A program made the translations under genes and the position numbers. Shown in pieces: positions 10,378-45,752 of a stretch of DNA of 64,000 nucleotides (the stretch's first letter is position 1; the number at the start of each line of letters is the position of its first letter). Under the pieces are notes generated by a model, which saw only the letters and a list, made by a program, of their open reading frames with translations, searched no databases and was not told where the DNA came from. Source of the stretch: a virus (taxonomy: Duplodnaviria > Caudoviricetes); the IMG/VR virus record IMGVR_UViG_2724679705_000002, positions 2,069-66,068 of that record; one strand, written 5' to 3'.

Positions 10378-10389
10378 ACGCTATCTAAA

Positions 10390-11238: not shown

Positions 11239-11300
11239 TGCGAACCCCACTATCGGTCAGATTTGTAAGGGCTAATCCATCTCGAAGCTCGCGTCGAGAG

Positions 11301-12229: not shown

Positions 12230-12240
12230 GGGTAGGTCCG

Positions 12241-13263: not shown

Positions 13264-13291
13264 GGGGGATGCTCCGGGGGAATGAGGGGGA

Positions 13292-13672: not shown

Positions 13673-13713
13673 GGTTCAGTCTCCACGATGTTGGGGGATG
13701 GGATGCGCCGGGA

Positions 13714-16535: not shown

Positions 16536-16538
16536 GGG

Positions 16539-18757: not shown

Positions 18758-19286
18758 GCGAGACCCGGAGGTCGGCGAGGGCGTCGAGCTGTTCGCGGAC
18801 ATGGGCTTCCAGCACCCTCTGCATGATCGCGGTCTCGATCGTCACCGATGCCCCGGATTGCCGTTCCACCTCCGCCATGATCTGCGCCGCCATCAGCGCG
18901 GCCACCCGTCCGGGCCAGGTCACCCAGACATCCCGTTCCTGCCGCGCCAGGCGAAACACCAGCGTTTCCGCCCGCGCACGGTCGACCAGCGTGCCCTTCT
19001 TCTTCTGGACCGCGATCTGCTTGTCCTGCGCGGCATAGACCGTCAGCAGCGTGCGGGCCTTGATGTAGGACGAGGTCTCGCCCGCACCGCTGGCCAGCCC
19101 GTCACCACCAAGCGACCTACGCTGCTGGTCGGGAGCCGTCATCTCGGCCCGCCGCACATCCGAGGCCGCGGCGTTGATCGACCCGTCGTCATGGACCACC
19201 AGCCGCCCGTTCTTGCGCGCCTTCTGCACCCCGCCGCGCGACAGCCCGGAATGGGCCGCATACTCGCGTTCGCTCATGCCTTTCAT
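18750..19286 (-). CDS. Terminase small subunit (Nu1-like wHTH)
   Basis: MKGMSEREYAAHSGLSRGGVQKARKNGRL N-terminal wHTH followed by coiled coil; directly upstream of terL. Confidence 0.85.
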   Translation of the reverse strand: MKGMSEREYAAHSGLSRGGVQKARKNGRLVVHDDGSINAAASDVRRAEMTAPDQQRRSLGGDGLASGAGETSSYIKARTLLTVYAAQDKQIAVQKKKGTLVDRARAETLVFRLARQERDVWVTWPGRVAALMAAQIMAEVERQSGASVTIETAIMQRVLEAHVREQLDALADLRVSLA

Positions 19287-28400: not shown

Positions 28401-28469
28401 GGTTGTCAGGCCCGTCAGGTGCCGCTGGATCGCCTGTTCCAGTGCCACTTCCTTGGTGTTGCTGACCAT
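25443..28469 (-). CDS. hsdR: Type I restriction enzyme R subunit
   Basis: D..LFLNGLPLITIELK nuclease motif; QHSAGSGKS, IIDEAH, FTATP and YLTGFDQP helicase motifs. Confidence 0.97.
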   Translation of the reverse strand: MVSNTKEVALEQAIQRHLTGLTTEELAGHPAPEGHGPFRLGLPADFDAEYALDTRLFWEFLETTQGKELAKLKDRNPADWQRKILERFDRLIKKNGVLHLLKKGLAVDDAFFALMYPAPLASSATKVQENFAANIFSVTRQVRYSQTNPGEEIDMVLFLNGLPLITIELKNAWTGQTARYHGQKQYRDGRDATQPLLQFGRALVHMAVDTDEVFMTTKLAGPATFFLPFNKGHEQGEGNPPNPNGHKTAYLWEEVFTKESLAGIIQHFVLLEGKATDPLAKKSMIFPRYHQLEVVRRLLAHAATTGVGHSYLIQHSAGSGKSNSITWTAYQLIETYPAKLGIPGAKGLDQPLFDSVIVVTDRRLLDKQLRENIKDFSEVKNIVAPALRSADLKSALENGKKIIITTIQKFPFIIEGIADLSDKRFAVIIDEAHSGQSGSAHDNMNRAMGAGDQDPDEDDPQDRILAAMQSRKMRGNASYFAFTATPKNTTLEKFGERQADGSFKPFHLYSMKQAIEEGFILNVLANYTTYKSYYEIQKSIADNPLFDTKKAQKKLRAYVERSQQTINTKAEIMLDHFIEHVVTPKKLRGKAKGMIVTQNIEAAIRYYKAVTKLLAERGNPFKALIAFSGEKVVDGVTYTEAEMNGFPEADTRDRFDEDDYRLLVVANKYLTGFDQPKLTTMYVDKKLQYVLAVQALSRLNRSAPKLGKRTEDLFILDFFNDVTDIKAAFDPFYTVTTLSSATDVNVLHELKGPLDQVGVYEWQEVEEFVTRYFAGEDAQTLSPLIDVAADRFNQQLELAEKDKIDVKIKARQFVKIYGQMASIMPFEVLEWEKLFWFLKFLVPKLKIKDPDQDMLDELLEAVDLSSYGLERTKLNHTIGLDASPTELEPQNPNPRGYRDGEPEKDPLDEIIRSFNERWFQGWSATPEEQRVKFINVVNSIRSHPDYTEKYEANSDPYNRGLALEKMLQEVMLKRRKEELELYRLFASDPAFKTAWSQSIAKVLMTNSV

Positions 28470-28478
28470 GATCCCCCC

Positions 28479-29786
28479 TTACGCCACCTTGATCTTGCCC
28501 GTGACCGCCGCGTTGATCAGGCTGGTCTTGTATTCTTTGAGTGCGGCGATCTGGTCTTCTTTAAATGATATGGCCCGATCATATTCGCCATTAAGCCCTT
28601 CGAGATGCTCTGTCAGGGCTTGTCGCTCTTCCGGTGGCGGAATCGGAACAGATATCGAATTGAGATTTGAGGTTGTAAGCTGGTTGATTGTCGCGGTCAG
28701 AAACGATCCAGCGAGCATCCGGAAAATCTCGCTATTGAGGATCTGAAAGATGTATCGGTTCATTTCAGATCGAAACACAGTGGTGAACGCACCAAAGCTC
28801 GCACCGGTGTCATCGTGTGTCGCTAACGCACATTTCCCGATGAGGTCACGACTTCCGTTCCGAGAGCAAATTAGGATGTCATTCGCGCGTATTCTGAGTT
28901 TTTCGGGAATGCGCATTCGGACATAGGCGTTGAGTCCGTCCCCGTAGACAAACTTGCCGCTCTTCAGGTTCGATGACCGCAAAACGAGAGTGCCCTCATC
29001 CTCGTCACAGAGGTCTTTGGGATCATAAGTCAGGCCAATCACAGCATTTCCAAGATGCTTGAGCCGCTTCACTTCCCAATGCGCGGGGATTTGGCCGATC
29101 CAGTCTATACGGCTGTCCTTCATGGGGGCGGAGGGGTTCAGGCCGCGGGTCACGGCCTGTTGGATCAGGATCTGCCGCCGCTCGCGCAACAGCGCGATCT
29201 GCTCTTCCTTGATCCGCACCGCCTCGTCCACCTTGGCGCATTTCTCATCCAGAAACGCCGCGATGGCGCGTTGTTCCTCGGGTGAGGGGATGGGCAGGCG
29301 CAGGTATTTGAAGTCGTCATAGGACAAGTTCTGCCGCAGCCCTGAGCCCAGAGCGTAGAAAACCTTCTTCACGTCGTAGGAATGCAGCAGGTAATGCAGG
29401 AACGCCGGGTCAATCTCGGCCTTAGGTCGAAGGTTGATGTAGGCCGACGTGATGATGCCAGTATCACGCGCCAACCCCGTGCGCAGGCTTGTCATATCGT
29501 TTTGCAGATCGGTGCCGCGAATGATTATGTCGCCGGGCTGGACGATCTGGTAGGTCTCGAAGCTTTCCGGCACCAGTCCGGTCAGCTTGTCCTCGTCTTT
29601 CACGATCACCCGGCCATAGCTCAGGGAAAGCACGGTGCTTTCCTTCATGCCGGTGTTCTTGTCCTTGTTTTCATACAGACACTGGCGGCCCGGTTCGACG
29701 CGCCAGTCTGCGGGCACTTCGCCGATCCACTCGACACCGCTCTCCTTGTAGTTGTCATAGGTCGGCCAGGCGGCGAGCGTCATCAC
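28479..29786 (-). CDS. hsdS: Type I restriction enzyme S subunit
   Basis: Two TRDs with conserved IP.PP.EEQ..I..FLD and LKEYKTSLINAAVTGK regions. Confidence 0.95.
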   Translation of the reverse strand: MMTLAAWPTYDNYKESGVEWIGEVPADWRVEPGRQCLYENKDKNTGMKESTVLSLSYGRVIVKDEDKLTGLVPESFETYQIVQPGDIIIRGTDLQNDMTSLRTGLARDTGIITSAYINLRPKAEIDPAFLHYLLHSYDVKKVFYALGSGLRQNLSYDDFKYLRLPIPSPEEQRAIAAFLDEKCAKVDEAVRIKEEQIALLRERRQILIQQAVTRGLNPSAPMKDSRIDWIGQIPAHWEVKRLKHLGNAVIGLTYDPKDLCDEDEGTLVLRSSNLKSGKFVYGDGLNAYVRMRIPEKLRIRANDILICSRNGSRDLIGKCALATHDDTGASFGAFTTVFRSEMNRYIFQILNSEIFRMLAGSFLTATINQLTTSNLNSISVPIPPPEERQALTEHLEGLNGEYDRAISFKEDQIAALKEYKTSLINAAVTGKIKVA

Positions 29787-32173
29787 ACCGCCTCCGACAG
29801 ATCGGCGGGCTTCACACCCAGAATATCGGCGATCAGGCCATCGGCCTTTTGCTCCAGCGCCAGAATGTCCCGCGTCACGTCATCCAGGCTGCGCAGCGGC
29901 TTGTGGCGGTAGAAATACTTGTTGAAGCTGATCTCGTAGCCGATCTTGACCGTGTCGAGGTTGATCCAGGCCTCGGGCACATGCGGCTTTACCTCGGCCT
30001 TGAAATAGCGGTGGATGCTGTCTTTCAGGGCCACCGCCTCGCTGTCGCGCAGGTCGGTGCTGGGGGCGTAGGTCAGGTAACTGCCATCCGGCTGGGCATA
30101 AAGGCCGAAGTCGCCCAACTCGTCGATGCCACAGCCAAGCCGCTCTGCCACCGCCTCCAGCTCTGCCTTGGAATAGCGCTGGATGCTGTCGATCACCTTT
30201 TCCGCGTCATCGGCATACCAGCTGACGGCGTTCAGGATCGCGTTCTTCTCGGTGGCGGTCAGCTTGATCTTGCGGGCCTTCAGCACCTTGCCGACGTGAT
30301 CGCGGAAGGCGTTGAAATCCGCCGTCTCTTCGGTGCCTACGGCCTCCATCAGCTGATGGCCGACCCCGATCAGATCGCGCTGGCGCAGCCAGAGCGAGGT
30401 GTCGACCAGTTTGCCACGCTGCTTGGCGTTCAGCGCGATCTCCTGCTCCTCGCACCAGGCCTGGATCGCCTTGGCCTGGGCCTTCAGGAAGCCGGGTTCA
30501 TAGACCTTGTCGCCATGTTCGGCCCACAGATGCTCCATCGGTTCGCGAAGGGATTTGTCGAAGCGCAGAGGTTCCAGCCGTTCGCGCGTGATGCGCGCGC
30601 GGCGGCGGTCGGGGCGTTCGATGGTGACCTTGTGATAGCCGAAATCGGTGTTGTCGAAGATTTGCACCGCAATGCCGGTGGGATCGCCGTTCGCGTCAAG
30701 CTGCCGTTCGACCGGCTGGAAGGCCATGTAGGCGGCGATGATGTCGTCGATATGTTCCGGGGCGAATTCGCAGTTCTTGTCGCCAAGGTTCTTGCGCAGC
30801 TTGCGGAACATCAGGTTGGCGTCGATCAGCTGCACCCGGCCGCGCCGCCCCTCGGGCTTGGCGTTGGTCAGAAGCCAGATGTAGGTGGTGATGCCAGTGT
30901 TGTAGAACAGGTTGTTCGGCAGCTGGATGATGGTGTCCAGCATGTCGTTTTCGATGATGAAGCGGCGGATGTTGGATTCGCCGCTGCCCGCGTCACCGGT
31001 GAACAGGCTGGAGCCGTTGTGGACGGAGGCGATGCGCGAGCCGATGGGGCTGTTGGCGATGGGCTTCATCTTGCCCACCATCTCCATCAGGAACAGAAGC
31101 TGGCCGTCGCTGGAGCGCGGTGTTGCGTCGACGGTTTCCGTCTTGCCCCAATAATCGGTCAGTTCCACCTGGAAGCGCGGGTCGATGACGTCGTTGCCAT
31201 CCTTGATGTGCTTCAGGTCGCTCTTCCAGCTCTTGCCGTAGGGCGGGTTCGACAGCATGAAGTCGAAGCGATGGCCCGAAAATTCGTCGGTGGACAGCGT
31301 CGAGCCGACCTTGATGTTCTCGGGGTTGTTGCCCTTGATCATCATGTCGGATTTGCAGATGGCATAGGTCTCGTCGTTGATTTCCTTGCCATAAAGGTAG
31401 ACGTCGCCCTTGGCCGCGATGGGGCCTTCGGGTTCCTTGATGTAGTTCTGGGCCTCGGTCAGCATCCCGCCGCTGCCGCAGGCGGGGTCGTAGATTGTCA
31501 TCACCGGCGGCAACTGGCCGCTGATCGGGTCGAAGATGAGGTGGGTCATCAGATGGATGACCTCACGCGGGGTGAAATGCTCCCCGGCTTCTTCGTTGTT
31601 TTCCTCGTTGAACTTGCGGATCAGCTCTTCGAAGACATAGCCCATGCCGAGGTTTGACAGACCGGGCATCATGTTGCCGTCCGGGTCTTCGGCGTCGTGG
31701 GGCGTCAGGTTGATGTAAGGCGAAATGAACTTTTCGAGGACGTCGAGCAGGACCTGCTTGTTCGCCATGTGCCGCATCTGCTCGAGCAGCTTGAAGCGGG
31801 CGATGATCTCTTTGACGTTGTCGCTGAAGCCGCCGAGATATTCCTCGACGTTGGCCAGCAGGATCTGCTGGTTGTTCGTGGCCGTGGCGTAGAGCTGTTT
31901 AAGCGTCCACTTGCTGGTGTTGTAAAACACGTATCCCGAAGCAGCGGTCAGCGGGGCATCATCGAGCTCTGTCGCCTTCATCTCTTCGCGCTGGAAGCGG
32001 ACTTCCTCCAGGACGGCCGCCTTGGTGGGTTCCAGCAGCGTGTCGAGGCGCCGTAATACGACCATCGGCAGGATAACGTCACGGTACTTGCCGCGCACAT
32101 AGACGTCGCGCAGGCAATCGTCAGCAATGGACCAGATGAAAGAGATGAGCTTGTTGTGGGCGGCCTGGTTCAT
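29783..32173 (-). CDS. hsdM: Type I restriction-modification M subunit
   Basis: GEHFTPRE, YDPACGSGGML and NPPY motifs. Confidence 0.97.
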   Translation of the reverse strand: MNQAAHNKLISFIWSIADDCLRDVYVRGKYRDVILPMVVLRRLDTLLEPTKAAVLEEVRFQREEMKATELDDAPLTAASGYVFYNTSKWTLKQLYATATNNQQILLANVEEYLGGFSDNVKEIIARFKLLEQMRHMANKQVLLDVLEKFISPYINLTPHDAEDPDGNMMPGLSNLGMGYVFEELIRKFNEENNEEAGEHFTPREVIHLMTHLIFDPISGQLPPVMTIYDPACGSGGMLTEAQNYIKEPEGPIAAKGDVYLYGKEINDETYAICKSDMMIKGNNPENIKVGSTLSTDEFSGHRFDFMLSNPPYGKSWKSDLKHIKDGNDVIDPRFQVELTDYWGKTETVDATPRSSDGQLLFLMEMVGKMKPIANSPIGSRIASVHNGSSLFTGDAGSGESNIRRFIIENDMLDTIIQLPNNLFYNTGITTYIWLLTNAKPEGRRGRVQLIDANLMFRKLRKNLGDKNCEFAPEHIDDIIAAYMAFQPVERQLDANGDPTGIAVQIFDNTDFGYHKVTIERPDRRRARITRERLEPLRFDKSLREPMEHLWAEHGDKVYEPGFLKAQAKAIQAWCEEQEIALNAKQRGKLVDTSLWLRQRDLIGVGHQLMEAVGTEETADFNAFRDHVGKVLKARKIKLTATEKNAILNAVSWYADDAEKVIDSIQRYSKAELEAVAERLGCGIDELGDFGLYAQPDGSYLTYAPSTDLRDSEAVALKDSIHRYFKAEVKPHVPEAWINLDTVKIGYEISFNKYFYRHKPLRSLDDVTRDILALEQKADGLIADILGVKPADLSEAV

Positions 32174-35998: not shown

Positions 35999-36060
35999 CG
36001 GCTGCTCCGTTCGCCTCGCGCCCCTCTGCCGGGGGCGGTTTCAGCGAAGCAGAGCGTGAG

Positions 36061-36111
36061 GACCGGAAGACAGGCGGAAGGTGGAACTGGCCGCTATCTC
36101 CCAATTCCACC
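36061..36111. promoter_or_regulatory. Regulatory repeat copy 1 (upstream of xis)
   Basis: 27/29 identical to 38569-38597; contains GGTGGAACTGG-N10-CCAATTCCACC inverted repeat. Confidence 0.65.
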
Positions 36112-36599
36112 CCTTGTTTTATTGGACTTTCAGCGGATAGCGCGCGACGCGACAGGCGTTGCCGCAGCCTTCGCAGGGCATTCCAAGCGCCGCTTCCTGG
36201 CGACGATCCGCGCTTCGTCGACACCGCTCCGACAGCTTGGGGCTGATTGGGCGGCGCTGAGGCGGTTTCGCCGGTTTCGCAGGGACCGGAATTGCCGGAA
36301 TGGACCATTCCGGTCGGGTTCCGACGGTTCTGGATGATATCCACAAGTTCTTTCTTTGTTCCGGTGCGCCAGTGCAGGATTCTGGTTGATCGTTCGCCTT
36401 CAGGATGCGTAGATTCGTGGTTGAGCAGAACATAAGAATCGACAAGGCAACCGAAGCCAGGTGCCGCCCCTCTTGGGGTGGGGTGCCCAATTACAGGCAG
36501 TTTTCCTCGACGACGTGGGCTGCAGCCAGTCCACCCGCGTGCTTGGCACGGCGGGTTTTTGTAACCCGCAGTCCGACGGCCCTGGCCGAAGGATGCCGT

Positions 36600-37223
36600 A
36601 TGTCTGAGAGGAGTTCGTTCATGCCTTTGCCGCCCGTCGCCTTCTATTCCATCTACGAAATTGCCGTGCGCTGGGGCTGTCCCCCGGCCGATGTCGCGGG
36701 CTGGGCGGCAGAGGGCCAGCTGAAGGTCGTCGCAGGCATTCCGCCCGTCAGATGTGGGGATGAAGTCGTGGGGGGCTTGGTCGAGGTGCCCATCGCGGAA
36801 CTGATGTGCATGTTCAGGCGGTTCGGGCCGAGCGACGATATCGGCCGATTGAGGCGCGTTCTCAAACCCGGCAGCGCGACCTGGGCGCACGTGACCGAAC
36901 CTTCGGATGGTCTGCCGATCCGCTCGTCAGACCTGCTGGTGGCGTCGGGGTCGTTGCTGCAATTCGAGGAAGAACGCGACCTATTGCGCCGCCCGGCCTC
37001 CACCATCGGCGCCAGTCCGCGGTACGATTGGGATTCCATGTACGCGTGGCTGACCGTTTTCCTGTTCGAAAAGGGGGTGCCCGACACCCAGACCGCGCTG
37101 GTTGCGCTGGTGCAGGACTGGTTCGTCCAGAATTCGAAGTCGGGGGAAGTGCCGGATGAAAGCACCATCCGCAAGCGGCTGACCTCCCTCTGGCGCAAGC
37201 TGCGTGGCGAGGAAACGGTGTGA
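36600..37223 (+). CDS. Hypothetical DNA-binding protein (putative regulator)
   Basis: N-terminal YSIYEIAVRWGC HTH-like segment and C-terminal VPDESTIRKRL wHTH-like segment; divergent from xis, convergent with int. Confidence 0.7.
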   Translation: MSERSSFMPLPPVAFYSIYEIAVRWGCPPADVAGWAAEGQLKVVAGIPPVRCGDEVVGGLVEVPIAELMCMFRRFGPSDDIGRLRRVLKPGSATWAHVTEPSDGLPIRSSDLLVASGSLLQFEEERDLLRRPASTIGASPRYDWDSMYAWLTVFLFEKGVPDTQTALVALVQDWFVQNSKSGEVPDESTIRKRLTSLWRKLRGEETV

Positions 37224-37226
37224 AGG

Positions 37227-38498
37227 TCAGGCCGATTTCGGCAAGTCGGTTCCGTCCTGCGCTGCGTCATGCACAAGGCGGGGCCGCGGGCGCAGGAGAC
37301 TGGCCACCGTATCGACGCCTGCGCGCAAGGGGGAATCCATCAGGTGCGCATAACGCTGGGTGGTCTGCATCTGGCTGTGGCCCAAGAGCTTGCCGATCAT
37401 TTCCAGCGATGCGCCGCCGCTGACAAGCAGGGAGGCGAAGGTGTGGCGCAGGTCGTGGATGCGGACGTCGGCCAGCCCGGCGTCCTTCTGTGCCTTGGCC
37501 CAGAAACGGCGGATTTCACGCACCGGCTGGCCAACCGTCTCGCCGGGGAAGAGCCACGGATTGCCGCTCGGCACCGCCCGCAGGCGCAGGCGCACGATGG
37601 CTGCGACGTCCTGCGAGATCGGCACACGGTGGATCTTGCGCTGCTTGGTGGTCGAGGCGGGTTTCGACCAGATGGCATAGTCGAGGTTGAACTGTTCGAA
37701 CCGCGCGGTCCTGACCTCGCCCACCCGCGCGCCGGTCAACATGCACATGCGGATGATCGCCGCGGCGCGCTGATCCTCGGCTGTATCCAGCACGACCGCC
37801 AGCCGGGTCAGTTCTTCGGGCGACAGGAACCGTTCGCGGGCATGTTCAATGCGCCGATGGAACCCCTGCGCGGGGTTGTCCGTCCGCCATTCCCATTCCA
37901 CCGCCAGCGTGAACATCTTGCGCAGCACCTCGCCCATGCGGTTGGCCCGGATTGGGGTTGGCTTGTGACCCTGCAGCTTTCGGGCGCGGTTGTTGGGCTT
38001 TGCCTTGCAGGGGCGGGGGCGGCCCTCTGCCACGAAATCGAGGAACTTCGCGACGTCGGACTTGGTGATCTCCGTCACCAGCCGGTTGCCCCAGGCCGGT
38101 TCGACCATCTTCTTCAGCATCGAGAGCTGGTCGCCTGCATTGGTCTTGGCCAGTTTTGGCAGGTGTTCAGCGATGTAACGGTCGATCATGTCGGTGATGC
38201 GCGGGGCCCCGCGCCACTCGTCGCGCGCCGCCAGAGGATCCTGCCCTTCGTCGATGGCGCGGCGCAGTTCCTTGGCGCGTTCGCGCGCGGCCGTGACACT
38301 CCATTCCGGCCAGCGCCCGATGGTCATCCGCCGCTGCCGCCCTGCGTGCCGGTAGTCGATGGTGAACGTGCGCGCGCCCGAGGCCTGAACCCGGGCGGCG
38401 AAGCCGATCACTTCCGTGTCGAAGATCTGATAGCTGACGCCGGGCTTGGGTTCCGCCTCGCGCAGGGTTTTTTCATTGAGTTTCAGTCTCTTGACCAT
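37227..38498 (-). CDS. int: Tyrosine integrase with N-terminal arm-binding domain (P4-like)
   Basis: TGARVGE, HDLRH, LLGH and TQRYAH catalytic motifs; RRMTIGRWPEWSV arm domain. Confidence 0.95.
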   Translation of the reverse strand: MVKRLKLNEKTLREAEPKPGVSYQIFDTEVIGFAARVQASGARTFTIDYRHAGRQRRMTIGRWPEWSVTAARERAKELRRAIDEGQDPLAARDEWRGAPRITDMIDRYIAEHLPKLAKTNAGDQLSMLKKMVEPAWGNRLVTEITKSDVAKFLDFVAEGRPRPCKAKPNNRARKLQGHKPTPIRANRMGEVLRKMFTLAVEWEWRTDNPAQGFHRRIEHARERFLSPEELTRLAVVLDTAEDQRAAAIIRMCMLTGARVGEVRTARFEQFNLDYAIWSKPASTTKQRKIHRVPISQDVAAIVRLRLRAVPSGNPWLFPGETVGQPVREIRRFWAKAQKDAGLADVRIHDLRHTFASLLVSGGASLEMIGKLLGHSQMQTTQRYAHLMDSPLRAGVDTVASLLRPRPRLVHDAAQDGTDLPKSA

Positions 38499-38568
38499 GC
38501 ATCCCGCCTCCTTGCCCGACGACACAGGCGTAGACCCGCGCCACTATCAAGTCGGACCACGGGGCCGG

Positions 38569-38616
38569 GACCGGAATACAGGCGGAAGGTGGAATTGAAC
38601 GCTGGCGGCCAATTCC
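38569..38616. promoter_or_regulatory. Regulatory repeat copy 2 (upstream of int)
   Basis: GACCGGAATACAGGCGGAAGGTGGAATTG...CCAATTCC with the same internal spacing as copy 1. Confidence 0.65.
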
Positions 38617-38806
38617 GGACAATGAAAACAGGGAGTTGGCCGTGCAAGCCCAGCGCGCCGGGTGGCCTGAGATGGGGAATCTTACTGGCATTTGCATCGA
38701 CCGTTTGATCGAACCCCGCGCATGGGGTAGGCGAACTCGCGGCCTTCGAGCCCAGCGATTAAGTGATACCGCCAGCGGACCGCATAATGACGGAGTAGGA
38801 TACAAA

Positions 38807-39403
38807 ATGCTTCAACCGACCGAGGCCCCCGGCCAGCTATTCGTGATCGTCATCGACGAGACATATGGAGGGGACGAGGACACTTGGGAATTCGAGAGCG
38901 AACGGTATCGGCGTGATTTGGAGCGGGCGTTTGGAACAACTTTCCAAGAGGCGAACGTTGGGCCCGGCGCCGACATCCCAGCCTTTCTCACTGATCTGAT
39001 CAACGCCAGAGTCCCACTCTGGAGCGCCGCGTTGGTTGTGTTCTTCGCGGGCAAGTCCATTAAGGATAGCTTCGAGGCTTGGATTGAGATGGCCCGCGCC
39101 GTCCGAAGCTTCTTCGATCGCCCTGTGATTTTGGCACGGCACGGCGCAGCGGTCCTCGCCATCGAAGCGGCGCTTGCCGAGATGAATGGTATCCCAAAAA
39201 CAATCCGACTGGTTCGCTACCGGGCCGGGCATCTGGCTGAGGATACGTCGCTCCTTGATGCAAACCTAGGCAACGGAATTGAAGACAGTCCACCTACCCT
39301 GAACCTTGGGTACGTGGTGCATCTCTTCGAGATGGAGGTCGACGGCGTGCTTCTCCGCGTGAGCGTCGACGGCAGGCGGGCTACGGTCGCGCGGGTTTCC
39401 TGA
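38807..39403 (+). CDS. Hypothetical protein (cargo between int and att)
   Basis: AGGA RBS before ATG 38807; 198 aa with one hydrophobic segment. Confidence 0.7.
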   Translation: MLQPTEAPGQLFVIVIDETYGGDEDTWEFESERYRRDLERAFGTTFQEANVGPGADIPAFLTDLINARVPLWSAALVVFFAGKSIKDSFEAWIEMARAVRSFFDRPVILARHGAAVLAIEAALAEMNGIPKTIRLVRYRAGHLAEDTSLLDANLGNGIEDSPPTLNLGYVVHLFEMEVDGVLLRVSVDGRRATVARVS

Positions 39404-39442
39404 GCTTTGGTCAGGCCGCCCCGGGTCACCTAAGCATGCTCG

Positions 39443-40384
39443 TCAGTCCATCCAGCCCTCGATGACGCCCTTCAGCTGAATGATGCGATCCTGCACCAAT
39501 GCGGATCTCTCTCCAGCCCAAACGAGCGGATACATAGAGCCACCCTCAACCTGCGAAGCGATCAGGGCGGCATGCTGGTCGGCAAAGTCGGACCAAGCCG
39601 CGTGAGCATCGCGAAGCATGGAGGCGTCCATGCCAGGAAGAGCCGCAACCCGTTCCAATAGCGCGTTCAGTTCCTCCTCCTCGCCGCGCAGTTTGTCGCC
39701 AGCGGCGACATTCATCGCAGTCTGCGTTCGAGGTACTGAGCCATGGAGAACCTCGACAACGGCCCAATCCACCCCGTCGACGAACGTTCGGGCGGCATCA
39801 ATGAAGGCTGTAAGGTCTGAAAGGTCGAATACGGGATCAGCGGGTAGTTCATGTGTTAGGACGTGGCGAACTTCGAAAAGGCGTGAGAGAGCCACCATCA
39901 TCGCATTGTAGTTGGTGACGATGGGAGGAAGTGGCCAATCGTCCGACTCCTCTGACCAGCGCGGATGCGCCGCTTTGAGTTTGTGCGCGAAGCCGGGGAT
40001 CAAGGTGTCCAAGATGGCCAAGATCCCATCAATCCCGTTTAGGGAAACGGAGTGAGCGATGAAGTCGCCGATCGTCAGCTCGCGCCGATTCACGTGTGCG
40101 GCGAAGGTCAGATCGATCTTCGCGCCTTTGACGAGTTTTTCCGCGCGTTGGAAGGTGGCTTCGTCGCCATCGACCAGCTCGGCGATCACCTCACGGAGGA
40201 AGACTTCAAGGATCGTCACCAATCGGATCGGCACGAACTGAAGGTGCATAGGCGCCAATCCCGCAATGGTACTGACCTCGGCTCTAAGCGCATCGATTTG
40301 TGCAGCGAGTTCCTGTCCGAGGCGACGATGTTCCCCGCGTCGGGCGTTCCATTCGATGATCTGCTGATAGGGCGAGCGGTGCAT
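39443..40384 (-). CDS. HEPN-like domain fused to LprI/DUF1311-like domain
   Basis: R-x4-H motif RHVLTH (39868-39851); C-terminal PRTQTAMN...LRDAHAAWSDF...GGSMYPL...L..DRI LprI pattern; no signal peptide. Confidence 0.7.
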   Translation of the reverse strand: MHRSPYQQIIEWNARRGEHRRLGQELAAQIDALRAEVSTIAGLAPMHLQFVPIRLVTILEVFLREVIAELVDGDEATFQRAEKLVKGAKIDLTFAAHVNRRELTIGDFIAHSVSLNGIDGILAILDTLIPGFAHKLKAAHPRWSEESDDWPLPPIVTNYNAMMVALSRLFEVRHVLTHELPADPVFDLSDLTAFIDAARTFVDGVDWAVVEVLHGSVPRTQTAMNVAAGDKLRGEEEELNALLERVAALPGMDASMLRDAHAAWSDFADQHAALIASQVEGGSMYPLVWAGERSALVQDRIIQLKGVIEGWMD

Positions 40385-40513
40385 TGTTTCTGCGACATAC
40401 TTTCTGATCTAATGGCTGATACTTGTCACTCGTTGCGGCAGGCTTCAAGGACGGTTGGCTATTCGCGCCGCTGACGGACATGGTGCTTGGTTGGCCGCAC
40501 GTTAGCATAAATG

Positions 40514-40536
40514 GATTATCACCATTGGTGATTATC
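40514..40536. promoter_or_regulatory. Imperfect palindromic operator (core ATCACCA-T-TGGTGAT)
   Basis: Inverted repeat ending just upstream of the -35 box, in the divergent spacer. Confidence 0.55.
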
Positions 40537-40539
40537 TAT

Positions 40540-40568
40540 TTGACTGCATGCGTCGAATCGTTCATGAT
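40540..40568 (+). promoter_or_regulatory. Sigma70-type promoter of the retron operon
   Basis: TTGACT-N17-CATGAT. Confidence 0.55.
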
Positions 40569-40574
40569 GGCGTG

Positions 40575-40790
40575 GTGAAGATTGTTCATCCGAGGAGCAG
40601 AACCCGTCTTGAGTTGGGGCCGTGAGCCCTGTGGAGGCCGATGGTCTCCGTCTCAATCCCGTAGCTGGCAGGGACCGCGGACGAGCGCCGCACCCGCTGG
40701 GCACGGGTGCGGCATGTTCGAGGTAAAACGTCGCTGAACTGACCTTCTTCCCGATGGGCACCGGCACTTTCGCCGGTGGGTAAGAAGGAG
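40575..40790 (+). ncRNA. Putative retron msr-msd RNA plus RBS-masking hairpin
   Basis: TTGAG/CTCAA stem (40609/40656) enclosing two hairpins; perfect 10-bp stem GCCGCACCCG/CGGGTGCGGC (40687-40713); CCTTCTT/AAGAAGG stem (40743-40788). Boundaries approximate. Confidence 0.65.
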
Positions 40791-40799
40791 ACTTTCAGG

Positions 40800-40940
40800 A
40801 TGGACAGGAAAAATCGTCACCAGCGGCGGCGCCGCCGGTCTGGCAGGAACCAAGGGTGGCTCTGGCGAGTCGTCGTTCTGCTGGGCCAGGCAACATACTA
40901 CGTTGTTCGTTTTTGGTTCTGGTTTTCGGACCGAGAGTGA
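40800..40940 (+). CDS. 46-aa small protein (not in ORF track), candidate retron effector toxin
   Basis: AAGGAG-N9-ATG; MDRKNRHQRRRRRSGRNQGWLWRVVVLLGQATYYVVRFWFWFSDRE*. Confidence 0.65.
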   Translation: MDRKNRHQRRRRRSGRNQGWLWRVVVLLGQATYYVVRFWFWFSDRE

Positions 40941-40975
40941 GCGGCGACCTCGAAAATAGCCGATTGGAGGGAACG

Positions 40976-41302
40976 ATGTCTGATGTGAAGCGACCGATGA
41001 TCAACGACGCCCTTCGCCTGATCCGCCTATACCATGGGTTTTCGCAAGCAGAACTTGCCGAAGAGATTGGACTGTCGCAATCAATGATCTCGGAGATCGA
41101 GCGCAATGCCAAGCCAGTCTCGATCGAGGTTCTTGAGCGATACAGCCAAAAGCTCGGGGTGCGGATGTCGCAGCTCATGTTCTTTGCCGAGGAGTTGGAA
41201 GGCGAGCCCGTGCAGAAGCGCGGTAAGCTGATCGTCGCGAACCGCGTGTTGAAGCTCCTAGAGTCCTTTTCCCCTAGGGAGCCTGCTGGTGCGGCACAGT
41301 AG
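40976..41302 (+). CDS. XRE/Cro-C1 HTH protein
   Basis: LRLIRLYHGFSQAELAEEIGLSQSMISEIERN; GGAGG RBS. Confidence 0.92.
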   Translation: MSDVKRPMINDALRLIRLYHGFSQAELAEEIGLSQSMISEIERNAKPVSIEVLERYSQKLGVRMSQLMFFAEELEGEPVQKRGKLIVANRVLKLLESFSPREPAGAAQ

Positions 41303-42320
41303 GAAGCCGCACCCGTACGAGATTTATGGTCTCGAGAGGTCTCCGTTTGCCCAGCGCCCTACCCAACGGGAGGTCGCCGATCTTCTGGGCGAAACCAAAG
41401 CTGACCTTATCCGCTTGGCCAATTACAAAGACCAGTTCATCGTGCGCCGCCGGGAAAACATAGGCGGCAAGGATCGGGATCTCGCATATCCGGTGTCGCG
41501 GCTTCGTGGCGTGCATGAACGCCTCAAGTTCCATCTCAACAAGGTCCAACAGCCCAGCTATCTCTTTAGCCCGCGTAAGAAGCGGAGCCAGCGGGACAAC
41601 GCGGCACTGCATCTCGACCAGGATCAGTACCTGACGATGGACGTAAAGCAATTTTATCCGTCAACGACGGAGGAAATGGTGTATCGCTGGTTTGTAGACG
41701 AACTCGGGCTGTTCGAGGATGTTGCCGGTCTGCTCACTCGTCTGAGTACCATTGATGGCAAGGCATCCTTCGGCTCGCCGCTCACACCTGTGCTCTGCAC
41801 CCTTGTCCATCGTCCTTTGTTCGACCGCATCTCCGATATCTGCGGCCATCGAGGACTGCGCCATTCTCTTTGGGTCGACGACTTGACGATTTCTGGAAAA
41901 TTTGTGCCTGGACAGGTTGTTACGAGCATCCGGGAAGTTATTCGACAGCGCGGTCTACGCTCGCACAAAATCCGATATCGCACGGGTAACCGACCAGTCA
42001 TGATAACTGGGATCGGCGTCGTCGGCCGGGATCTTCTCGCGCCCAATTCGCTCAACCTCCGCATTAAGCAGTATTGGCAGGATCTGCATGATGCGATGAC
42101 GGCAGAGGAACGGGCCTCATGCGCCCAACGCCTCCTCAGCCAGCTCGGAACCGTCCGGCATATCGTCGGAACGAAGTCTAACGTGGGGCAGCGAGCGTCC
42201 GACCAGATGAACATGCTCAAGCAGAAGCGAGACAAATGGATAAGTGAGGCGAGCCAAGAAGCGTCGAAAAAGAGCGCCGATGAGGCCGCGCCGATGGAGC
42301 ATGAAGACATACCGTTCTGA
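41289..42320 (+). CDS. Retron-type reverse transcriptase
   Basis: Region X NAALH, DVKQFYPS, SFGSP, catalytic WVDD, region Y ITG; no maturase/endonuclease domain; overlaps the HTH stop. Confidence 0.88.
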   Translation: MRHSRKPHPYEIYGLERSPFAQRPTQREVADLLGETKADLIRLANYKDQFIVRRRENIGGKDRDLAYPVSRLRGVHERLKFHLNKVQQPSYLFSPRKKRSQRDNAALHLDQDQYLTMDVKQFYPSTTEEMVYRWFVDELGLFEDVAGLLTRLSTIDGKASFGSPLTPVLCTLVHRPLFDRISDICGHRGLRHSLWVDDLTISGKFVPGQVVTSIREVIRQRGLRSHKIRYRTGNRPVMITGIGVVGRDLLAPNSLNLRIKQYWQDLHDAMTAEERASCAQRLLSQLGTVRHIVGTKSNVGQRASDQMNMLKQKRDKWISEASQEASKKSADEAAPMEHEDIPF

Positions 42321-42622
42321 TCCGGGCGTGGGCTAAGGTTTTTTTGAGCGCGACTGTGTCAGTGCCATCCGGTCGAAGATTGCGTCGGCGGTTACCTGCA
42401 CCTAGCTGACTCTTAGGTAAGACGTGGCAAAAGGCGTTAACCTCTCCTCGCATCGAGTTCGGTGCCAGGTTTGTGGCCTTCGCTCGTCGGAAGGTAATCT
42501 GCTTGGCTTGTCAACGTCTGGTCAACCCTTGAATTCAGTTTCACCGCGTTCGCTTCCGTTGAAATGAGTTGATTTCCGCCGAGTGTCGGTCAGTACCTCA
42601 ACGAATTCAAAGGCATGCTGTG

Positions 42623-42635
42623 TAAGTGATTGATT
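42623..42635 (-). promoter_or_regulatory. IHF site next to att
   Basis: AATCAATCACTTA on the minus strand matches WATCAANNNNTTR. Confidence 0.6.
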
Positions 42636-42665
42636 TGATTCACTTTACAGGATCGGCGTGGTTGC

Positions 42666-42712
42666 GGCTCATAACCTGAAGGCCGCAGGTTCAAATCCTG
42701 CCCCCGCAACCA
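42666..42712 (+). other. 3' half of tRNA-fMet(CAT) = att site at the integrase-proximal end of prophage 1
   Basis: GGCTCATAACCTGAAGGCCGCAGGTTCAAATCCTGCCCCCGCAACCA; 5' half of the tRNA absent. Confidence 0.88.
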
Positions 42713-42740
42713 AAATTACCACGCGATAACGGTGACTTAC

Positions 42741-42765
42741 AAGCCGCCCCTCCGGGCGGCTTTTT
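42741..42765 (+). terminator. Rho-independent terminator (original tRNA terminator)
   Basis: AAGCCGCCC/GGGCGGCTT stem followed by T-run. Confidence 0.8.
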
Positions 42766-42806
42766 GCTGTGCAGATTTTAACTCAACACCAACTCAACAA
42801 AACCGG

Positions 42807-42853
42807 TGTAGCGTGACACGAATTTTTGCAGGGCGTGACACGAATATTTGCAG
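42807..42853. repeat. Mu-type right end: terminal TG plus two transposase-binding sites (R1/R2-like)
   Basis: TGTA then GCGTGACACGAATWTTTGCAG twice with 22-bp period (42811, 42833). Confidence 0.72.
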
Positions 42854-42948
42854 CATCTGAATTTTGTCCGAGACTTCCGCGTCCTGACGATTCCATGATC
42901 CCGACTGACAGCCGAGGCGCTGTCGATTCGTAGTAATCGGGGGTTCTC

Positions 42949-43470
42949 ATGGTTCTTAAAACAGGCTTTTCAGCAGCACTTGTAGCGGTTGCGTCAATCG
43001 GGTTTGGATCGGCTTCAAACGCGGCCATCCTGTGGACATTCGACGGGACAGTTGTCGATGCAGGCCTCTACTGCGCGTTTCCGGACCCAGACGAAGAATG
43101 TCAGCCCGACGAAATGCCGATATTCAATTACGCTCTCGGAGAGACGGGCGTCGCGACCGCGCGTATCCGGGCCGGGGTTGTCACTTTGAACTTCAACGGC
43201 TCCGAGCTTTTCAGTGGCGAGGTTGAGCGAATTGGAAACCGCTATAGCAGCTGGATAGATCGCAACCCCTTTGCAGTGCATCTCCTCGAATGGAACGATC
43301 GTTCGGGGTTTCTTTATTATGAGAACGACGACGTCCCGTAATTCGAGCGGTTTCAACTGCAGCTGGACAATGTCACCATGTCCCCGATCCCCCTCCCCGC
43401 CTCCGCAGCCCTTCTGCCCCTGGGCCTGGGCGCCCTCGCGCTGGTGCGAAGGCGCCGCCGTTCGGCTTAG
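42949..43470 (+). pseudogene. VPLPA-CTERM (PEP-CTERM-like) surface protein interrupted by in-frame TAA at 43339-43341
   Basis: Signal peptide; same frame continues FERFQLQLDNVTMSPIPLPASAALLPLGLGALALVRRRRRSA*. Confidence 0.8.
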
Positions 43471-45752
43471 ACCGCAAGCGGCTCCAGGCAGCCCCGCGAG
43501 GGGTTCGGGCCACGCAGGCGGCCCAGCAGATCGCGGGGCAACCTGGGCCATTGGTCCGCATCCTGATAGGCCCCGCTTCCGGGCGCAGGGCGGTAGAGCT
43601 GCACCATGCCGCCCGGCAGTCCGTTGACCGGGTTGTATTTCGGAAGGCTGGTCATCGGGACAGTGCGATGGTCGAACCCGAAATCCAGGCTGGTTCCCGC
43701 AGGCCAGGTCGCGCCGCTGGTGTTGGTGATCGTGATGGCGCTTGCACCGAACGACACCGCGATCTGGCTTGAAACCGCGGTGTAGATGGCCCCTGTGGAC
43801 GCGGCCTCCTCGCTCGCCGCGTCACTGCCGCCGAACCGGATCCAGTGGTCCCTGTGGCGGGACGGATCGGCGGTGAACATGGCCCGCGCATAGGACGCCG
43901 CTTGCCATCCCGCAGGCTGATTGAGGTCGGCATAGGGAATCGTGACCGTTCCCCCAGGGGCGACGGCCGCAGGCAGCCCGGCAGGCCATGTCCCGCGCGC
44001 CACGCCGATCTTGTAGCCGCGGTCGACGGGCGCCCAAAGCGCCTCCAGGTCGAACGGCCCGTCGCTGGTCAAACCATCCGCCCTGTTTGGGGTATGGACC
44101 ACGTTGTTGGCGAAGGTGGCCCGTTTGAAATACACGCCGCCGTCTGCGCCCCCGATCGGAACATAGGCCCCGCTGTAATGGGCGTCGGACACCAGATTGA
44201 CCACGGTGCAATGCAGGATCGCCACGGCGCTTTCGAGCGAATCCCGATCCAGATCGGGCACCCCTTTCATGCCGATGCTCGATCCGGGCAGCCAGGGGGC
44301 ATCGGACGCGATATCCGGCCGGATGACCAGGCAGTTTTCGAGCGCCACGCCCCCGTTGCTGTCATTTCCAAACACCCCTCCCTTCCGCGATGCGGGGACG
44401 ATGATGCTTTCCGACATCCGCCCGTTCAGGGCGCGCTGGGTCGAGGGCGCCCCGCCGATGGCATTGCCCCAGGCGACGCTGCCCTCGATATAGCTGCGGG
44501 ACACCAGAATCCGGCTGATGGTGTCGTTCTGGTGAATGCGCAGCACCGGCTGCGGGCTGGGCGGCAGGACGGCCCCGTTGCCCGACCATTGCCCTTTGCC
44601 ATGCCCGGAAAAGGATTCGACGATCATCAGGGCGTTTCGTTGGGATCGCAGCGCCGTGTGATCGTTGCGCATCCCGCGTTCGCCCAGGGATTTTCCGACG
44701 CCGTTCATCAGCGCATCCGCGCTGTGAATGCCCTCGCACCCGATAATCAGGAAATGGGACCGATTCCCCGCCGAGGCGTAATAGCCGAAGTTCTGGAAGT
44801 TCCTGGCGGAACAGTTCTGGGCCACGAGATAGGACGGCCGCGAGTCCGACGCGCTGTAGGTGTCGTATCCGTTCCCCACGCCGTCCGCCAGGCAGTTCCT
44901 GACCGCGAGCCAGCCCGTCACCCAGATCGAGAACGCGGCCGGCAGGGACGCGACGTTGCCCGCCGCGGTGCTTTCGATCGTGCTGTCCCAGGTGCTGCGC
45001 ACATCGAGGTTTTCCAGGAAGGTGTATTCGACACCCTTTCCCGCCTCGCCGACGACCCGCATGAACGCCACCGCCGATGGGGCGACATTGATGATCGCCC
45101 GTGCGGATCCCCCATAGGTGCCGACCGTGAAGCGCCCCATGTTCCAGGCGTTCTGGTTGGCCGCCTCGCTTTGCAAGCGAAAGCCCTCGCTTTCGAACGC
45201 CTCTCCCGCCCGGCACAGGATCCGGTGATTGCTGCCCGAGGTCATCGCATAATTCATCGCCGCGTCGAAGGACGCGAAGCGATGGTCCACGTTGTGCGCA
45301 GGCGCCCCGGTCCAGGTGCCGCTCGTGCTCACGATCAGGGGAATATACCCGGCGGGATAGGGATTGACCGTGAAGGTGATCGAGGCATAGGCGGTGCGCC
45401 CCCAGTAATCCGTGACCGCCACCAGGACCGTATGGGTGCCGGGATCATAGATCCGGCAGACGTGCTGATCCCGCGCCCTATTGGCGTCTCGATGCGCGGG
45501 CAGCAGGCGTTCCGGCACATCGAAGGTCGCGCCCGGCATCCCCATGTCCCATTCGCAATGCATCTCGCGAAACGCGGGATCGTAGGTGATGCCGGTGCGC
45601 TTCTTGGTGTGCGAAAAGTTCGCCGGGACCGCCTTGAGAATGATAGGTTCCGGCCCCCCATAGGCGAGATTTGCCGGATCGTGGGGGCGGGTGATCTCGA
45701 TGGCCACACTCGGGGCGGACAGGCGTTTGACGGCTGCGGTGATGCTGCCCAT
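43467..45752 (-). CDS. Large accessory protein: PKD-like N-terminal domain + probable right-handed beta-helix
   Basis: CEWDMG...YDPGTHTVLVAVTDYWG..ASITFTV (PKD-like); G/N/S-rich beta-helix-like repeats; 761 aa. Confidence 0.6.
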   Translation of the reverse strand: MGSITAAVKRLSAPSVAIEITRPHDPANLAYGGPEPIILKAVPANFSHTKKRTGITYDPAFREMHCEWDMGMPGATFDVPERLLPAHRDANRARDQHVCRIYDPGTHTVLVAVTDYWGRTAYASITFTVNPYPAGYIPLIVSTSGTWTGAPAHNVDHRFASFDAAMNYAMTSGSNHRILCRAGEAFESEGFRLQSEAANQNAWNMGRFTVGTYGGSARAIINVAPSAVAFMRVVGEAGKGVEYTFLENLDVRSTWDSTIESTAAGNVASLPAAFSIWVTGWLAVRNCLADGVGNGYDTYSASDSRPSYLVAQNCSARNFQNFGYYASAGNRSHFLIIGCEGIHSADALMNGVGKSLGERGMRNDHTALRSQRNALMIVESFSGHGKGQWSGNGAVLPPSPQPVLRIHQNDTISRILVSRSYIEGSVAWGNAIGGAPSTQRALNGRMSESIIVPASRKGGVFGNDSNGGVALENCLVIRPDIASDAPWLPGSSIGMKGVPDLDRDSLESAVAILHCTVVNLVSDAHYSGAYVPIGGADGGVYFKRATFANNVVHTPNRADGLTSDGPFDLEALWAPVDRGYKIGVARGTWPAGLPAAVAPGGTVTIPYADLNQPAGWQAASYARAMFTADPSRHRDHWIRFGGSDAASEEAASTGAIYTAVSSQIAVSFGASAITITNTSGATWPAGTSLDFGFDHRTVPMTSLPKYNPVNGLPGGMVQLYRPAPGSGAYQDADQWPRLPRDLLGRLRGPNPSRGCLEPLAV

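What the first reader, a model, noticed from the sequence alone, without database searches (positions are those of the whole stretch)
40575..42320. Retron-like anti-phage system: structured RNA + hidden small protein + XRE-HTH + WVDD reverse transcriptase
Seen: one promoter-driven plus-strand unit with four parts. (i) An msr-like junction (TTGAG/CTCAA closing GGGC/GCCC and GGAGGCC/GGTCTCC hairpins) and an msd-like 10-bp perfect hairpin at 40687-40713. (ii) An unannotated 46-aa ORF. (iii) An HTH. (iv) An RT with retron-specific NAxxH and (V/I)TG regions but an atypical WVDD catalytic motif and SFGSP in place of QG. Established: retrons are tripartite anti-phage systems, and the HTH plus small-protein arrangement matches type VI of the Mestre et al. 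classification, which is little characterised. Inference: an alphaproteobacterial, prophage-encoded variant protecting the lysogen. This is the strongest candidate for an undescribed system in the window.
Basis: partly seen in the sequence, partly recalled or inferred. Interest (0 to 1): 0.92.

Follow-up and report, generated by a model that had tools for sequence, protein, structure and literature searches.

The report
Prophage-borne Type VI retron, alphaproteobacterial lineage
This is a Type VI retron, an anti-phage system built from a structured RNA that carries a small toxin gene, a helix-turn-helix (HTH) protein and a reverse transcriptase (RT); it is a clear new member of a kind already described, here in a divergent alphaproteobacterial branch and carried by a prophage.

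Summary
PADLOC profiles place the RT (41289-42320) in RT_VI (1.3e-59; next family 6e-33) and the HTH (40976-41302) in HTH_VI (2.8e-31).

The 46-codon small-protein (SP) ORF (40800-40940) is kept in the 37 related loci where SP and HTH could be placed.

The upstream RNA does not stop at 40800. It runs from about 40575 to 40953 and encloses the SP gene. Over 30 homologues, 97% of cells in 55 tested base pairs are paired and 22 pairs show compensatory changes. Three long-range helices tie the non-coding part to the SP codons and to the bases just after the SP stop. The SP ribosome-binding site (Shine-Dalgarno, SD) lies in a hairpin in all 30.

This matches the "hybrid RNA" (hyRNA) published for Retron-Vpa2 (bioRxiv 2025). 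Retron-Sen3 (bioRxiv 2026) shows SP is the toxin. So the system is not undescribed.

WVDD and FGSP are not oddities of this copy. They mark a monophyletic sub-lineage of Type VI RTs. The TTGAG/CTCAA closing stem is not conserved.

The retron is cargo between the integrase and the att site of a ~48 kb siphovirus prophage inserted in a tRNA-Met(CAT) gene.

Reverse-transcribed DNA (msDNA) and defence were not tested.

The parts
40540..40568 (+). Promoter-like site, TTGACT-17 nt-CATGAT. The predicted transcript start is about 40575.
   Evidence: 9 of 12 matches. Conservation in alignment A2 begins at column 57, which is 40575. In A2 several homologues appear to carry TTGAC and a CATAAG/TATAAG-like box at a similar distance; this is my reading, not a count.
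40575..40953 (+). Hybrid RNA (hyRNA): a non-coding 5' arm, a ribosome-binding-site hairpin and the embedded SP coding sequence, closed by long-range helices.
   Evidence: Alignment A2 of 30 homologues. 55 pairs are 97.3% paired and 22 covary. The single-sequence fold has z -2.13, with 0 of 100 shuffles folding as well.
40616..40650 (+). Two adjacent 5' hairpins: H1 at 40616-20/40626-30 and H2 at 40632-38/40644-50.
   Evidence: H1 is nearly invariant. H2 has 6 of 7 pairs with compensatory changes. A covariance model of 40598-40663 finds the same motif upstream of a distant Type VI RT (L009, E 0.002).
40687..40713 (+). H3, a perfect 10-bp G+C-rich hairpin and the candidate reverse-transcription template stem. 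Its loop carries UGGGCAC (40698-40704).
   Evidence: 98% paired, 2 covarying pairs, 6 invariant. The assignment as template is inferred from the Vpa2 model, not shown.
40718..40724 (+). 5' arm (UCGAGGU) of the inverted repeat that pairs with 40947-40953 (ACCUCGA), just after the SP stop codon.
   Evidence: 7 pairs, 100% paired, 4 with compensatory changes. Coordinates.
40729..40736 (+). CGUCGCUG, which pairs with CAGCGGCG (40821-40828) inside SP codons 8-10. This helix encloses the SD hairpin and the start codon.
   Evidence: 8 pairs, 96% paired, 2 with compensatory changes. Also present in the single-sequence minimum-energy fold.
40743..40788 (+). Y-shaped hairpin that sequesters the SP Shine-Dalgarno (SD) sequence AAGGAG (40785-40790). 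It has an inner stem at 40761-65/40772-76, and its internal loop carries the second UGGGCAC (40755-40761).
   Evidence: Per-sequence folds place the SD in this hairpin in all 30 homologues, with different stem sequences; the SD is fully or nearly fully paired in 23. The inner stem has 3 covarying pairs. Direct repeat.
40800..40940 (+). SP, a 46-aa small protein with an Arg-rich N-terminus (HQRRRRR) and one long hydrophobic, aromatic helix. It is the presumed toxin effector.
   Evidence: The ORF is kept in the 37 related loci where SP and HTH could be placed; the 30 used are aligned as A3. Indels in A3 look like whole codons (my reading). Third-codon-position entropy is 50.4, against 36.8 and 38.2 for positions 1 and 2, and synonymous to non-synonymous single changes are 2362:2500. 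AlphaFold2 gives a helix at 16-45 with mean pLDDT 78. The toxin role is taken from Vpa2 and Sen3 and was not tested.
40830..40835 (+). CGCCGC in the SP Arg codons, which pairs with GCGGCG (40941-40946) directly after the SP stop codon.
   Evidence: 6 pairs, 97% paired, 4 with compensatory changes.
40976..41302 (+). Cro/C1-type HTH protein, 108 aa. It overlaps the RT start by 14 nt.
   Evidence: PADLOC HTH_VI 2.8e-31, profile positions 1-91 of 92. Pfam HTH_3 5.4e-13. Found directly upstream of the RT in nearly all homologous loci; alignment A4 has 70% mean identity.
41289..42320 (+). Retron Type VI reverse transcriptase, 343 aa, GTG start. Motifs: NAALH, SFGSP, WVDD, ITG.
   Evidence: PADLOC RT_VI 1.3e-59, 199.8 bits, profile positions 2-272 of 279; next best is RT_III-A at 112 bits. 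NCBIfam retron models match below their cut-offs. 532 homologues.
37227..38525 (-). Context: tyrosine integrase of the host prophage.
   Evidence: Pfam Phage_integrase 2.4e-24 and Arm-DNA-bind_3. PHROG 1 integrase 4e-67.
42668..42712 (+). Context: a 45-nt 3' fragment of tRNA-Met(CAT), the right att repeat of the prophage. The intact tRNA lies at contig positions 12-88.
   Evidence: ARAGORN finds no tRNA in the window.

Best explanation
The locus is a Type VI retron carried as cargo by a prophage.

**Proposed workings.** One promoter makes a structured hybrid RNA of about 380 nt (40575-40953), followed by the HTH and RT genes. The RNA has three parts.
- A 5' arm with hairpins H1, H2 and H3, which is the likely RT-binding and template part.
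- A hairpin that hides the ribosome-binding site and start codon of the 46-aa SP.
- The SP coding sequence itself, clamped by three long-range helices.

By analogy with Retron-Vpa2, the RT, HTH and RNA would form a resting complex in which SP is not translated. Phage infection would let reverse-transcribed DNA accumulate. That DNA would open the hairpin, possibly through the UGGGCAC repeat shared by the H3 loop and the hairpin loop. SP would then be made and stop the infected cell.

**Shown here:** family membership of the RT and HTH, conservation of the SP ORF, the RNA fold with covariation, and the prophage setting.

**Inferred only:** RT-DNA synthesis, SP toxicity, the trigger and defence itself.

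**My odds:** Type VI retron, about 0.93. Vpa2-like translational switch rather than the Sen3 mode, about 0.55.
For: - **Family.** PADLOC RT_VI 1.3e-59 and HTH_VI 2.8e-31, both near full length. Ten sampled relatives down to 31% identity all hit RT_VI best.
- **SP.** Conserved in the 37 loci where it could be placed, with excess third-position variation. Predicted as a disordered basic N-terminus plus one helix.
- **RNA.** 55 pairs are 97.3% paired and 22 covary. Slid controls give 37-49% paired and 2-9 covarying pairs, and 0 of 500 shuffles reach the observed values.
- **Three-arm layout.** The three nested long-range helices (40718-24/40947-53, 40729-36/40821-28, 40830-35/40941-46) reproduce the three-arm hyRNA with closing inverted repeats described for Vpa2.
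- **Sequestration.** The SD lies in the hairpin in all 30 homologues, through different stem sequences; it is fully or nearly fully paired in 23. The start codon is often in a second small hairpin. Vpa2 has the same two features.
- **Direct repeat.** A 7-nt repeat sits in the H3 loop and the hairpin loop, as reported for Vpa2.
- **Autonomy.** The module travels alone. The two neighbouring genes are not found beside it elsewhere.
Against: - No RT-DNA, toxicity or defence data exist for this lineage.
- Rfam has no matching family.
- No branching G or canonical a1/a2 pair around an msr-msd could be assigned.
- The direct-repeat match is only slightly better within a locus than between loci (mean 5.3 against 4.7 nt).
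- Sen3, also Type VI, makes DNA and SP constitutively, so sequestration in a fold does not prove translational control.
- The RT active site differs from the studied members (W for Y; F for T or Q).
Confidence: 0.6

Rival explanations
1. A Type VI retron that works in the Retron-Sen3 mode. SP and RT-DNA are made constitutively, the HTH protein binds and neutralises SP as an antitoxin, and loss of a host DNA-end-processing nuclease activity during infection frees SP.
For: Sen3 has the same SP-HTH-RT order, an RBS buried in the RNA and a long-range pairing across the SP gene. Here HTH is as conserved as the RT (A4, 70% mean identity) and is coupled to it by a 14-nt overlap.
Against: The host has alpha-type AddA above the curated cut-off, and no RecC was found in a 100%-complete genome, so RecBCD surveillance cannot apply as published. 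The SD hairpin, start-codon hairpin and loop repeats match the Vpa2 description more closely.
Confidence: 0.3
2. A retron-derived module kept mainly as an addiction or maintenance toxin-antitoxin system, or as a regulator, of the prophage or plasmid that carries it, rather than for defence against other phages.
For: It sits between the integrase and att of a prophage. Relatives lie on Rhizobium, Agrobacterium and Leisingera plasmids and within about 1.5 kb of tRNA genes in 5 other loci. Three related cluster representatives carry WVDN, which may be catalytically impaired.
Against: Both studied Type VI retrons defend against phages. Placement as cargo next to att in prophages is typical of defence genes (my knowledge). 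The RT catalytic DD is kept in nearly all members.
Confidence: 0.06
3. A non-retron defence reverse transcriptase (Abi, UG or DRT class) that only resembles a retron.
For: Pfam RVT_1 matches only weakly (E 1e-4, below the gathering score). No Rfam retron RNA match.
Against: All top 25 listed PADLOC matches are retron RT families, led by RT_VI with an 88-bit margin. The three NCBIfam matches are all retron RT models. The NAxxH and (V/I)TG motifs are present. The partner HTH matches the Type VI-specific profile.
Confidence: 0.02

Closest known systems
Retron-Vpa2 (Type VI, Vibrio parahaemolyticus; Zhang et al., bioRxiv 10.1101/2025.10.22.683967)
   Same: Same gene order: RNA-SP-HTH-RT. [quoted passage not shown] Direct repeats sit in a 5'-arm loop and the RBS-hairpin loop. 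SP is small with a hydrophobic, aromatic C-terminal helix.
   Different: The RT catalytic motif is YADD in Vpa2 and WVDD here. SP is 55 aa there and 46 aa here. The host is a gammaproteobacterium. The RNA here is about 380 nt against about 470 nt. I did not have the Vpa2 sequences, so no direct alignment was made.
Retron-Sen3 and the cl2075 lineage (Type VI, Salmonella enterica; Garcia-Rodriguez et al., bioRxiv 10.64898/2026.04.27.721009)
   Same: SP-HTH-RT module. The SP RBS is buried in the RNA. A long-range pairing links the non-coding RNA to the bases just after the SP stop codon, and covariation extends into the SP coding region.
   Different: Sen3 has YVDD, a 79-aa SP with two or three helices, constitutive DNA and SP, and a RecBCD-loss trigger. 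This host was not found to have RecC and has AddA. That paper's subclades are described for Beta- and Gammaproteobacteria, Bacteroidetes and Pseudomonas, plus a mixed "Large" group. Alphaproteobacteria are not mentioned.
Type VI retrons of P2-like phages (for example Burkholderia phage KS5 gp44/gp45, Peduovirus P22H1)
   Same: Phage-borne HTH and RT with about 30% RT identity. KS5 also has an unannotated small basic and hydrophobic ORF and, by eye, a similar pair of hairpins upstream.
   Different: My covariance model of the 5' core did not score the KS5 RNA significantly. The carrier phages there are myoviruses.

Membership tests
Type VI retron (Mestre et al. 2020 classification) | The RT belongs to the Type VI RT clade. 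| tested here: met
   PADLOC RT_VI 1.3e-59, 199.8 bits, profile positions 2-272 of 279; the next family scores 112 bits. Ten relatives spanning 31-47% identity all hit RT_VI best. No rooted tree with the reference set was built.
Type VI retron (Mestre et al. 2020 classification) | A Cro/C1-type HTH protein lies directly upstream of, or overlapping, the RT gene. | tested here: met
   PADLOC HTH_VI 2.8e-31, positions 1-91 of 92. 14-nt overlap with the RT start. Conserved across loci.
Type VI retron (Mestre et al. 2020 classification) | A small accessory protein (SP) is encoded upstream of the HTH. | tested here: met
   A conserved ORF of 37-46 aa with a coding signature. Its published cluster identity (cl2075, cl2760, cl3272, cl3897 or other) could not be assigned because no reference sequences were at hand.
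Type VI retron (Mestre et al. 2020 classification) | A structured RNA upstream that extends over the SP gene and buries the SP RBS (hyRNA or extended ncRNA). | tested here: met
   22 covarying pairs, three long-range helices, and the SD inside the hairpin in all 30 homologues.
Retron (general) | Retron-specific RT motifs NAxxH and (V/I)TG, plus a catalytic xxDD. | tested here: met
   NAALH at 104-108, ITG at 239-241 and WVDD at 195-198. These columns are kept across the family.
Retron (general) | An msr-msd RNA with flanking a1/a2 inverted repeats and a priming guanosine. | tested here: inconclusive
   The inverted repeat 40718-24/40947-53 covaries, but it flanks the SP gene rather than the 5' arm. 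No closing stem for the 5' arm is conserved. No priming G could be assigned.
Retron (general) | Production of RT-dependent single-stranded DNA (msDNA). | not testable with these tools
This needs a wet-lab test.
Retron (general) | Anti-phage defence through a toxic effector. | not testable with these tools
   Known only from the Vpa2 and Sen3 preprints.

The most novel reading that the evidence does not exclude
The alphaproteobacterial FG/WVDD sub-lineage may be a functionally distinct variant of Type VI. It has an altered polymerase pocket (Trp for the Tyr of YxDD; Phe where other Type VI RTs have Thr or Gln), and some members carry WVDN.

SP codons 8-12 themselves form one strand of two of the three clamping helices. 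A first ribosome passing through would therefore unzip the whole RNA scaffold, giving a translation-coupled, self-reinforcing switch.

The trigger would have to involve AddAB or phage recombinases rather than RecBCD.
Probability: 0.15. Interest if true: 0.6.

Novelty: new member of a known kind. Interest (0 to 1): 0.35.

Why it matters
It extends the recently described Type VI hybrid-RNA design to Alphaproteobacteria, on prophages and on Rhizobium and Agrobacterium plasmids. Independent covariation evidence supports the three-arm fold.

This suggests that embedding the toxin gene in the RT's RNA partner is general to the type.

It also flags a small toxin gene that the one RefSeq-derived plasmid annotation I checked does not list, and an RT sub-lineage with an unusual active site.

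It does not reveal a new kind of system.

Tried and rejected
- **Rfam** scan of 36000-44000 at E up to 1: nothing.
four of its five pairs hold in only 10-12 of 30 homologues.
- **My alternative closing helix** between the 5' end and 40652-40665: duplex energies are no better than shuffles, -8.4 against -8.3 kcal/mol. Dropped.
- **Covariance model R1** of the 5' core against distant Type VI loci: one hit (L009, E 0.002). KS5, P22H1 and five others gave nothing significant, even with filters off.
- **Even sample of 400 genomes of the class**: only about 30%-identical RTs turned up, so the close family is sporadic.
- **Neighbouring LprI-like and 255-aa genes as parts of the system**: rejected, because they are not found beside the retron in any other locus.
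Full report
**1. What is there**

The plus strand between 40540 and 42320 holds one compact unit.
- A promoter-like site, TTGACT-17-CATGAT, lies at 40540-40568.
- A non-coding stretch of about 225 nt follows.
- A 46-codon ORF runs from 40800 to 40940, preceded by AAGGAG.
- A 108-aa HTH gene runs from 40976 to 41302.
- A 343-aa RT gene runs from 41289 to 42320. It starts at GTG and overlaps the HTH gene by 14 nt.

**2. Family assignment**

- PADLOC profiles put the RT in RT_VI (1.3e-59, 199.8 bits, near full length). The next family, RT_III-A, scores 112 bits, and all 25 listed matches are retron RT families.
- The HTH matches the Type VI-specific HTH_VI profile at 2.8e-31, over positions 1-91 of 92.
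- Pfam sees the RT only weakly (RVT_1, 1e-4) and the HTH as HTH_3.
- NCBIfam retron models match below their cut-offs.
- Rfam has no match.

**3. The literature**

Two preprints now describe this architecture.
[quoted passage not shown] DNA accumulates only after a phage trigger, and it then de-represses SP.
- Retron-Sen3 has SP as toxin and HTH as antitoxin. DNA is made constitutively, and loss of RecBCD is the trigger.

The system is therefore known in kind, though only recently and only from Gammaproteobacteria.

**4. Relatives**

- The RT has 532 homologues in the word-indexed search. The named ones are almost all Alphaproteobacteria, including Pseudooceanicola, Cereibacter, Rhizobium, Agrobacterium, Bosea and Hoeflea.
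- I fetched 61 metagenome loci and 3 genome loci.
- The HTH lies directly upstream of the RT in nearly all loci with enough sequence.
- A small ORF of 37-46 aa lies upstream of the HTH in the 37 loci where both could be placed. It has a conserved basic N-terminus (HQRRRR) and a hydrophobic, aromatic C-terminal half.
- In A3 the indels look like whole codons (my reading). Third codon positions vary most (entropy 50.4, against 36.8 and 38.2). Single-base codon differences are synonymous nearly as often as not (2362:2500), which is far more synonymous than I would expect by chance.
- AlphaFold2 on the 30-sequence alignment gives a disordered residues 1-15 and one helix at 16-45, with mean pLDDT 78.
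- In the gene table distributed for an Agrobacterium vitis plasmid, the HTH and RT are listed but the small ORF is not.

**5. The RNA**

I aligned 30 non-identical homologues from 250 nt upstream of SP to the HTH start (A2). A search for stacked, well-paired, covarying columns, together with RNAalifold, gave nine helices. I then tested these as one structure.
- 97.3% of cells are paired. With partners slid by 1-3 columns the figure is 37-49%.
- 22 pairs have changes on both sides, against 2-9 when slid.
- 0 of 500 shuffles reach any observed measure.

In window coordinates the helices are:

| Helix | Coordinates | Note |
|---|---|---|
| H1 | 40616-20 / 40626-30 | nearly invariant |
| H2 | 40632-38 / 40644-50 | 6 of 7 pairs covary |
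| H3 | 40687-96 / 40704-13 | G+C-rich 10-bp hairpin |
| Inner stem | 40761-65 / 40772-76 | inside the SD hairpin |
| Long-range 1 | 40718-24 / 40947-53 | 4 covarying pairs |
| Long-range 2 | 40729-36 / 40821-28 | 3' strand in SP codons 8-10 |
| Long-range 3 | 40830-35 / 40941-46 | 4 covarying pairs |

The table leaves out two weaker helices from the same test: a 3-bp stem at 40658-60/40671-73 and an alternative pairing at 40603-06/40755-58.

The three long-range helices are nested. Together they make a three-arm RNA: the 5' structured arm, an arm with the SD and start codon, and an arm with the rest of the SP gene. The 3' strands of helices 3 and 1 follow directly after the SP stop codon (40938-40940).

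Folding the middle arm sequence by sequence places the SD in a Y-shaped hairpin in all 30 homologues, through different stem sequences. The SD is fully or nearly fully paired in 23. The start codon is often in a second small hairpin.

A 7-nt direct repeat, UGGGCAC, lies in the H3 loop (40698-704) and in the internal loop of the SD hairpin (40755-761). Other lineages share 4-10 nt there, but the within-locus match is only slightly longer than the between-locus match. This point is suggestive only.

All of this matches the published description of the Vpa2 hyRNA point for point.

**6. The RT active site**

- WVDD is present in 118 of the 120 closest homologues.
- In a search of 1.8 billion cluster representatives, 86 clusters match at E up to 1e-30.
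- In a tree of 121 full-length representatives, those with xFG in motif B form one clade of 22 (support 0.94). Of these, 17 have WVDD, 3 have WVDN and 2 have YVDD.
- The rest of the family has mostly YVDD, with PTGSP the commonest motif B. Trp turns up sporadically in 6 others.
- All ten sampled members, from both sides, hit RT_VI best. The FG/W group scores 171-256 bits and the others 276-301.
- So this is a divergent sub-lineage within, or at the edge of, Type VI, not an aberrant copy.

**7. Setting**

- Positions 3-18802 of the window encode siphovirus tail, tape-measure, head, protease, portal and terminase proteins.
- These are followed by methyltransferases, a type I restriction-modification system at 25443-32173 and an integrase at 37227-38525.
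- An intact tRNA-Met(CAT) lies at contig positions 12-88. A 45-nt copy of its 3' end lies at window 42668-42712. This bounds a prophage of about 48.4 kb.
- The retron lies in the 4.1 kb between the integrase and the right att, in a stretch of 55-59% G+C against 65-72% around it.
- The two genes between the integrase and the retron are not found next to the retron in any other locus, so the conserved unit is RNA-SP-HTH-RT.
- Relatives sit on Rhizobium, Agrobacterium and Leisingera plasmids, and within about 1.5 kb of tRNA genes in five other loci.
- Distant Type VI RTs occur in P2-like phages.

**8. Mechanism**

I favour the Vpa2 mode, at about 0.55. The reasons are the conserved SD and start-codon hairpins and the loop repeats.

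The Sen3 mode remains open, at about 0.3. As published it needs RecBCD, and this host has AddA with no RecC found.

No tool here could test DNA synthesis, toxicity or defence.

**9. Verdict**

This is a new member of a known kind, with a well-supported RNA fold and an unusual but lineage-typical RT active site.

Noticed in passing
P0135, P0137, P0146 (representatives): Three cluster representatives inside the FG/W Type VI sub-lineage carry WVDN instead of WVDD, so the second catalytic Asp is lost. They may be inactive or altered RTs.
   Followed up: no
L035:1760-2121, also L036, L047, L062: One sub-group lacks the H3 hairpin altogether (a gap of about 27 nt in A2). It has a shorter 37-aa SP whose end overlaps the HTH start. 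It may be a natural variant without the presumed template stem.
   Followed up: no
window 41289-42320, RT residues 294-343: The RT has a C-terminal tail of about 50 aa beyond the RT_VI profile. It ends in a nearly invariant Pro-Phe (P342, F343 in alignment A1).
   Followed up: no
window 36060-36108 and 38568-38616: A 49-nt direct repeat (84% identity) brackets the integrase gene, 2508 nt apart. Its meaning is unknown.
   Followed up: no
window 42811-42853: Two tandem 21-nt copies (GCGTGACACGAAT[T/A]TTTGCAG) lie about 100 nt beyond the att fragment.
   Followed up: no
window 39443-40384 (-) and 38636-39403 (+): A 313-aa protein with an LprI-like C-terminal domain (Pfam 1.2e-10) and a 255-aa protein with no family match lie between the integrase and the retron. 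Neither co-occurs with the retron elsewhere.
   Followed up: partly
window 25443-32173 (-): A complete type I restriction-modification system (hsdR, hsdS, hsdM) lies in the same prophage, so the prophage carries at least two defence modules.
   Followed up: partly
L001:1750-1839; L025:3780-3856; L058:5030-5105; L060:1409-1484: Homologous retrons in other genomes lie within about 0.2-1.5 kb of tRNA genes (Ser, Met, Val, Lys). This suggests they ride at the ends of integrated elements there too.
   Followed up: partly
L083:554-756 (Burkholderia phage KS5): An unannotated 67-aa basic and hydrophobic ORF lies upstream of the annotated regulator gp45 and RT gp44. It looks like the SP of that phage's Type VI retron.
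   Followed up: partly
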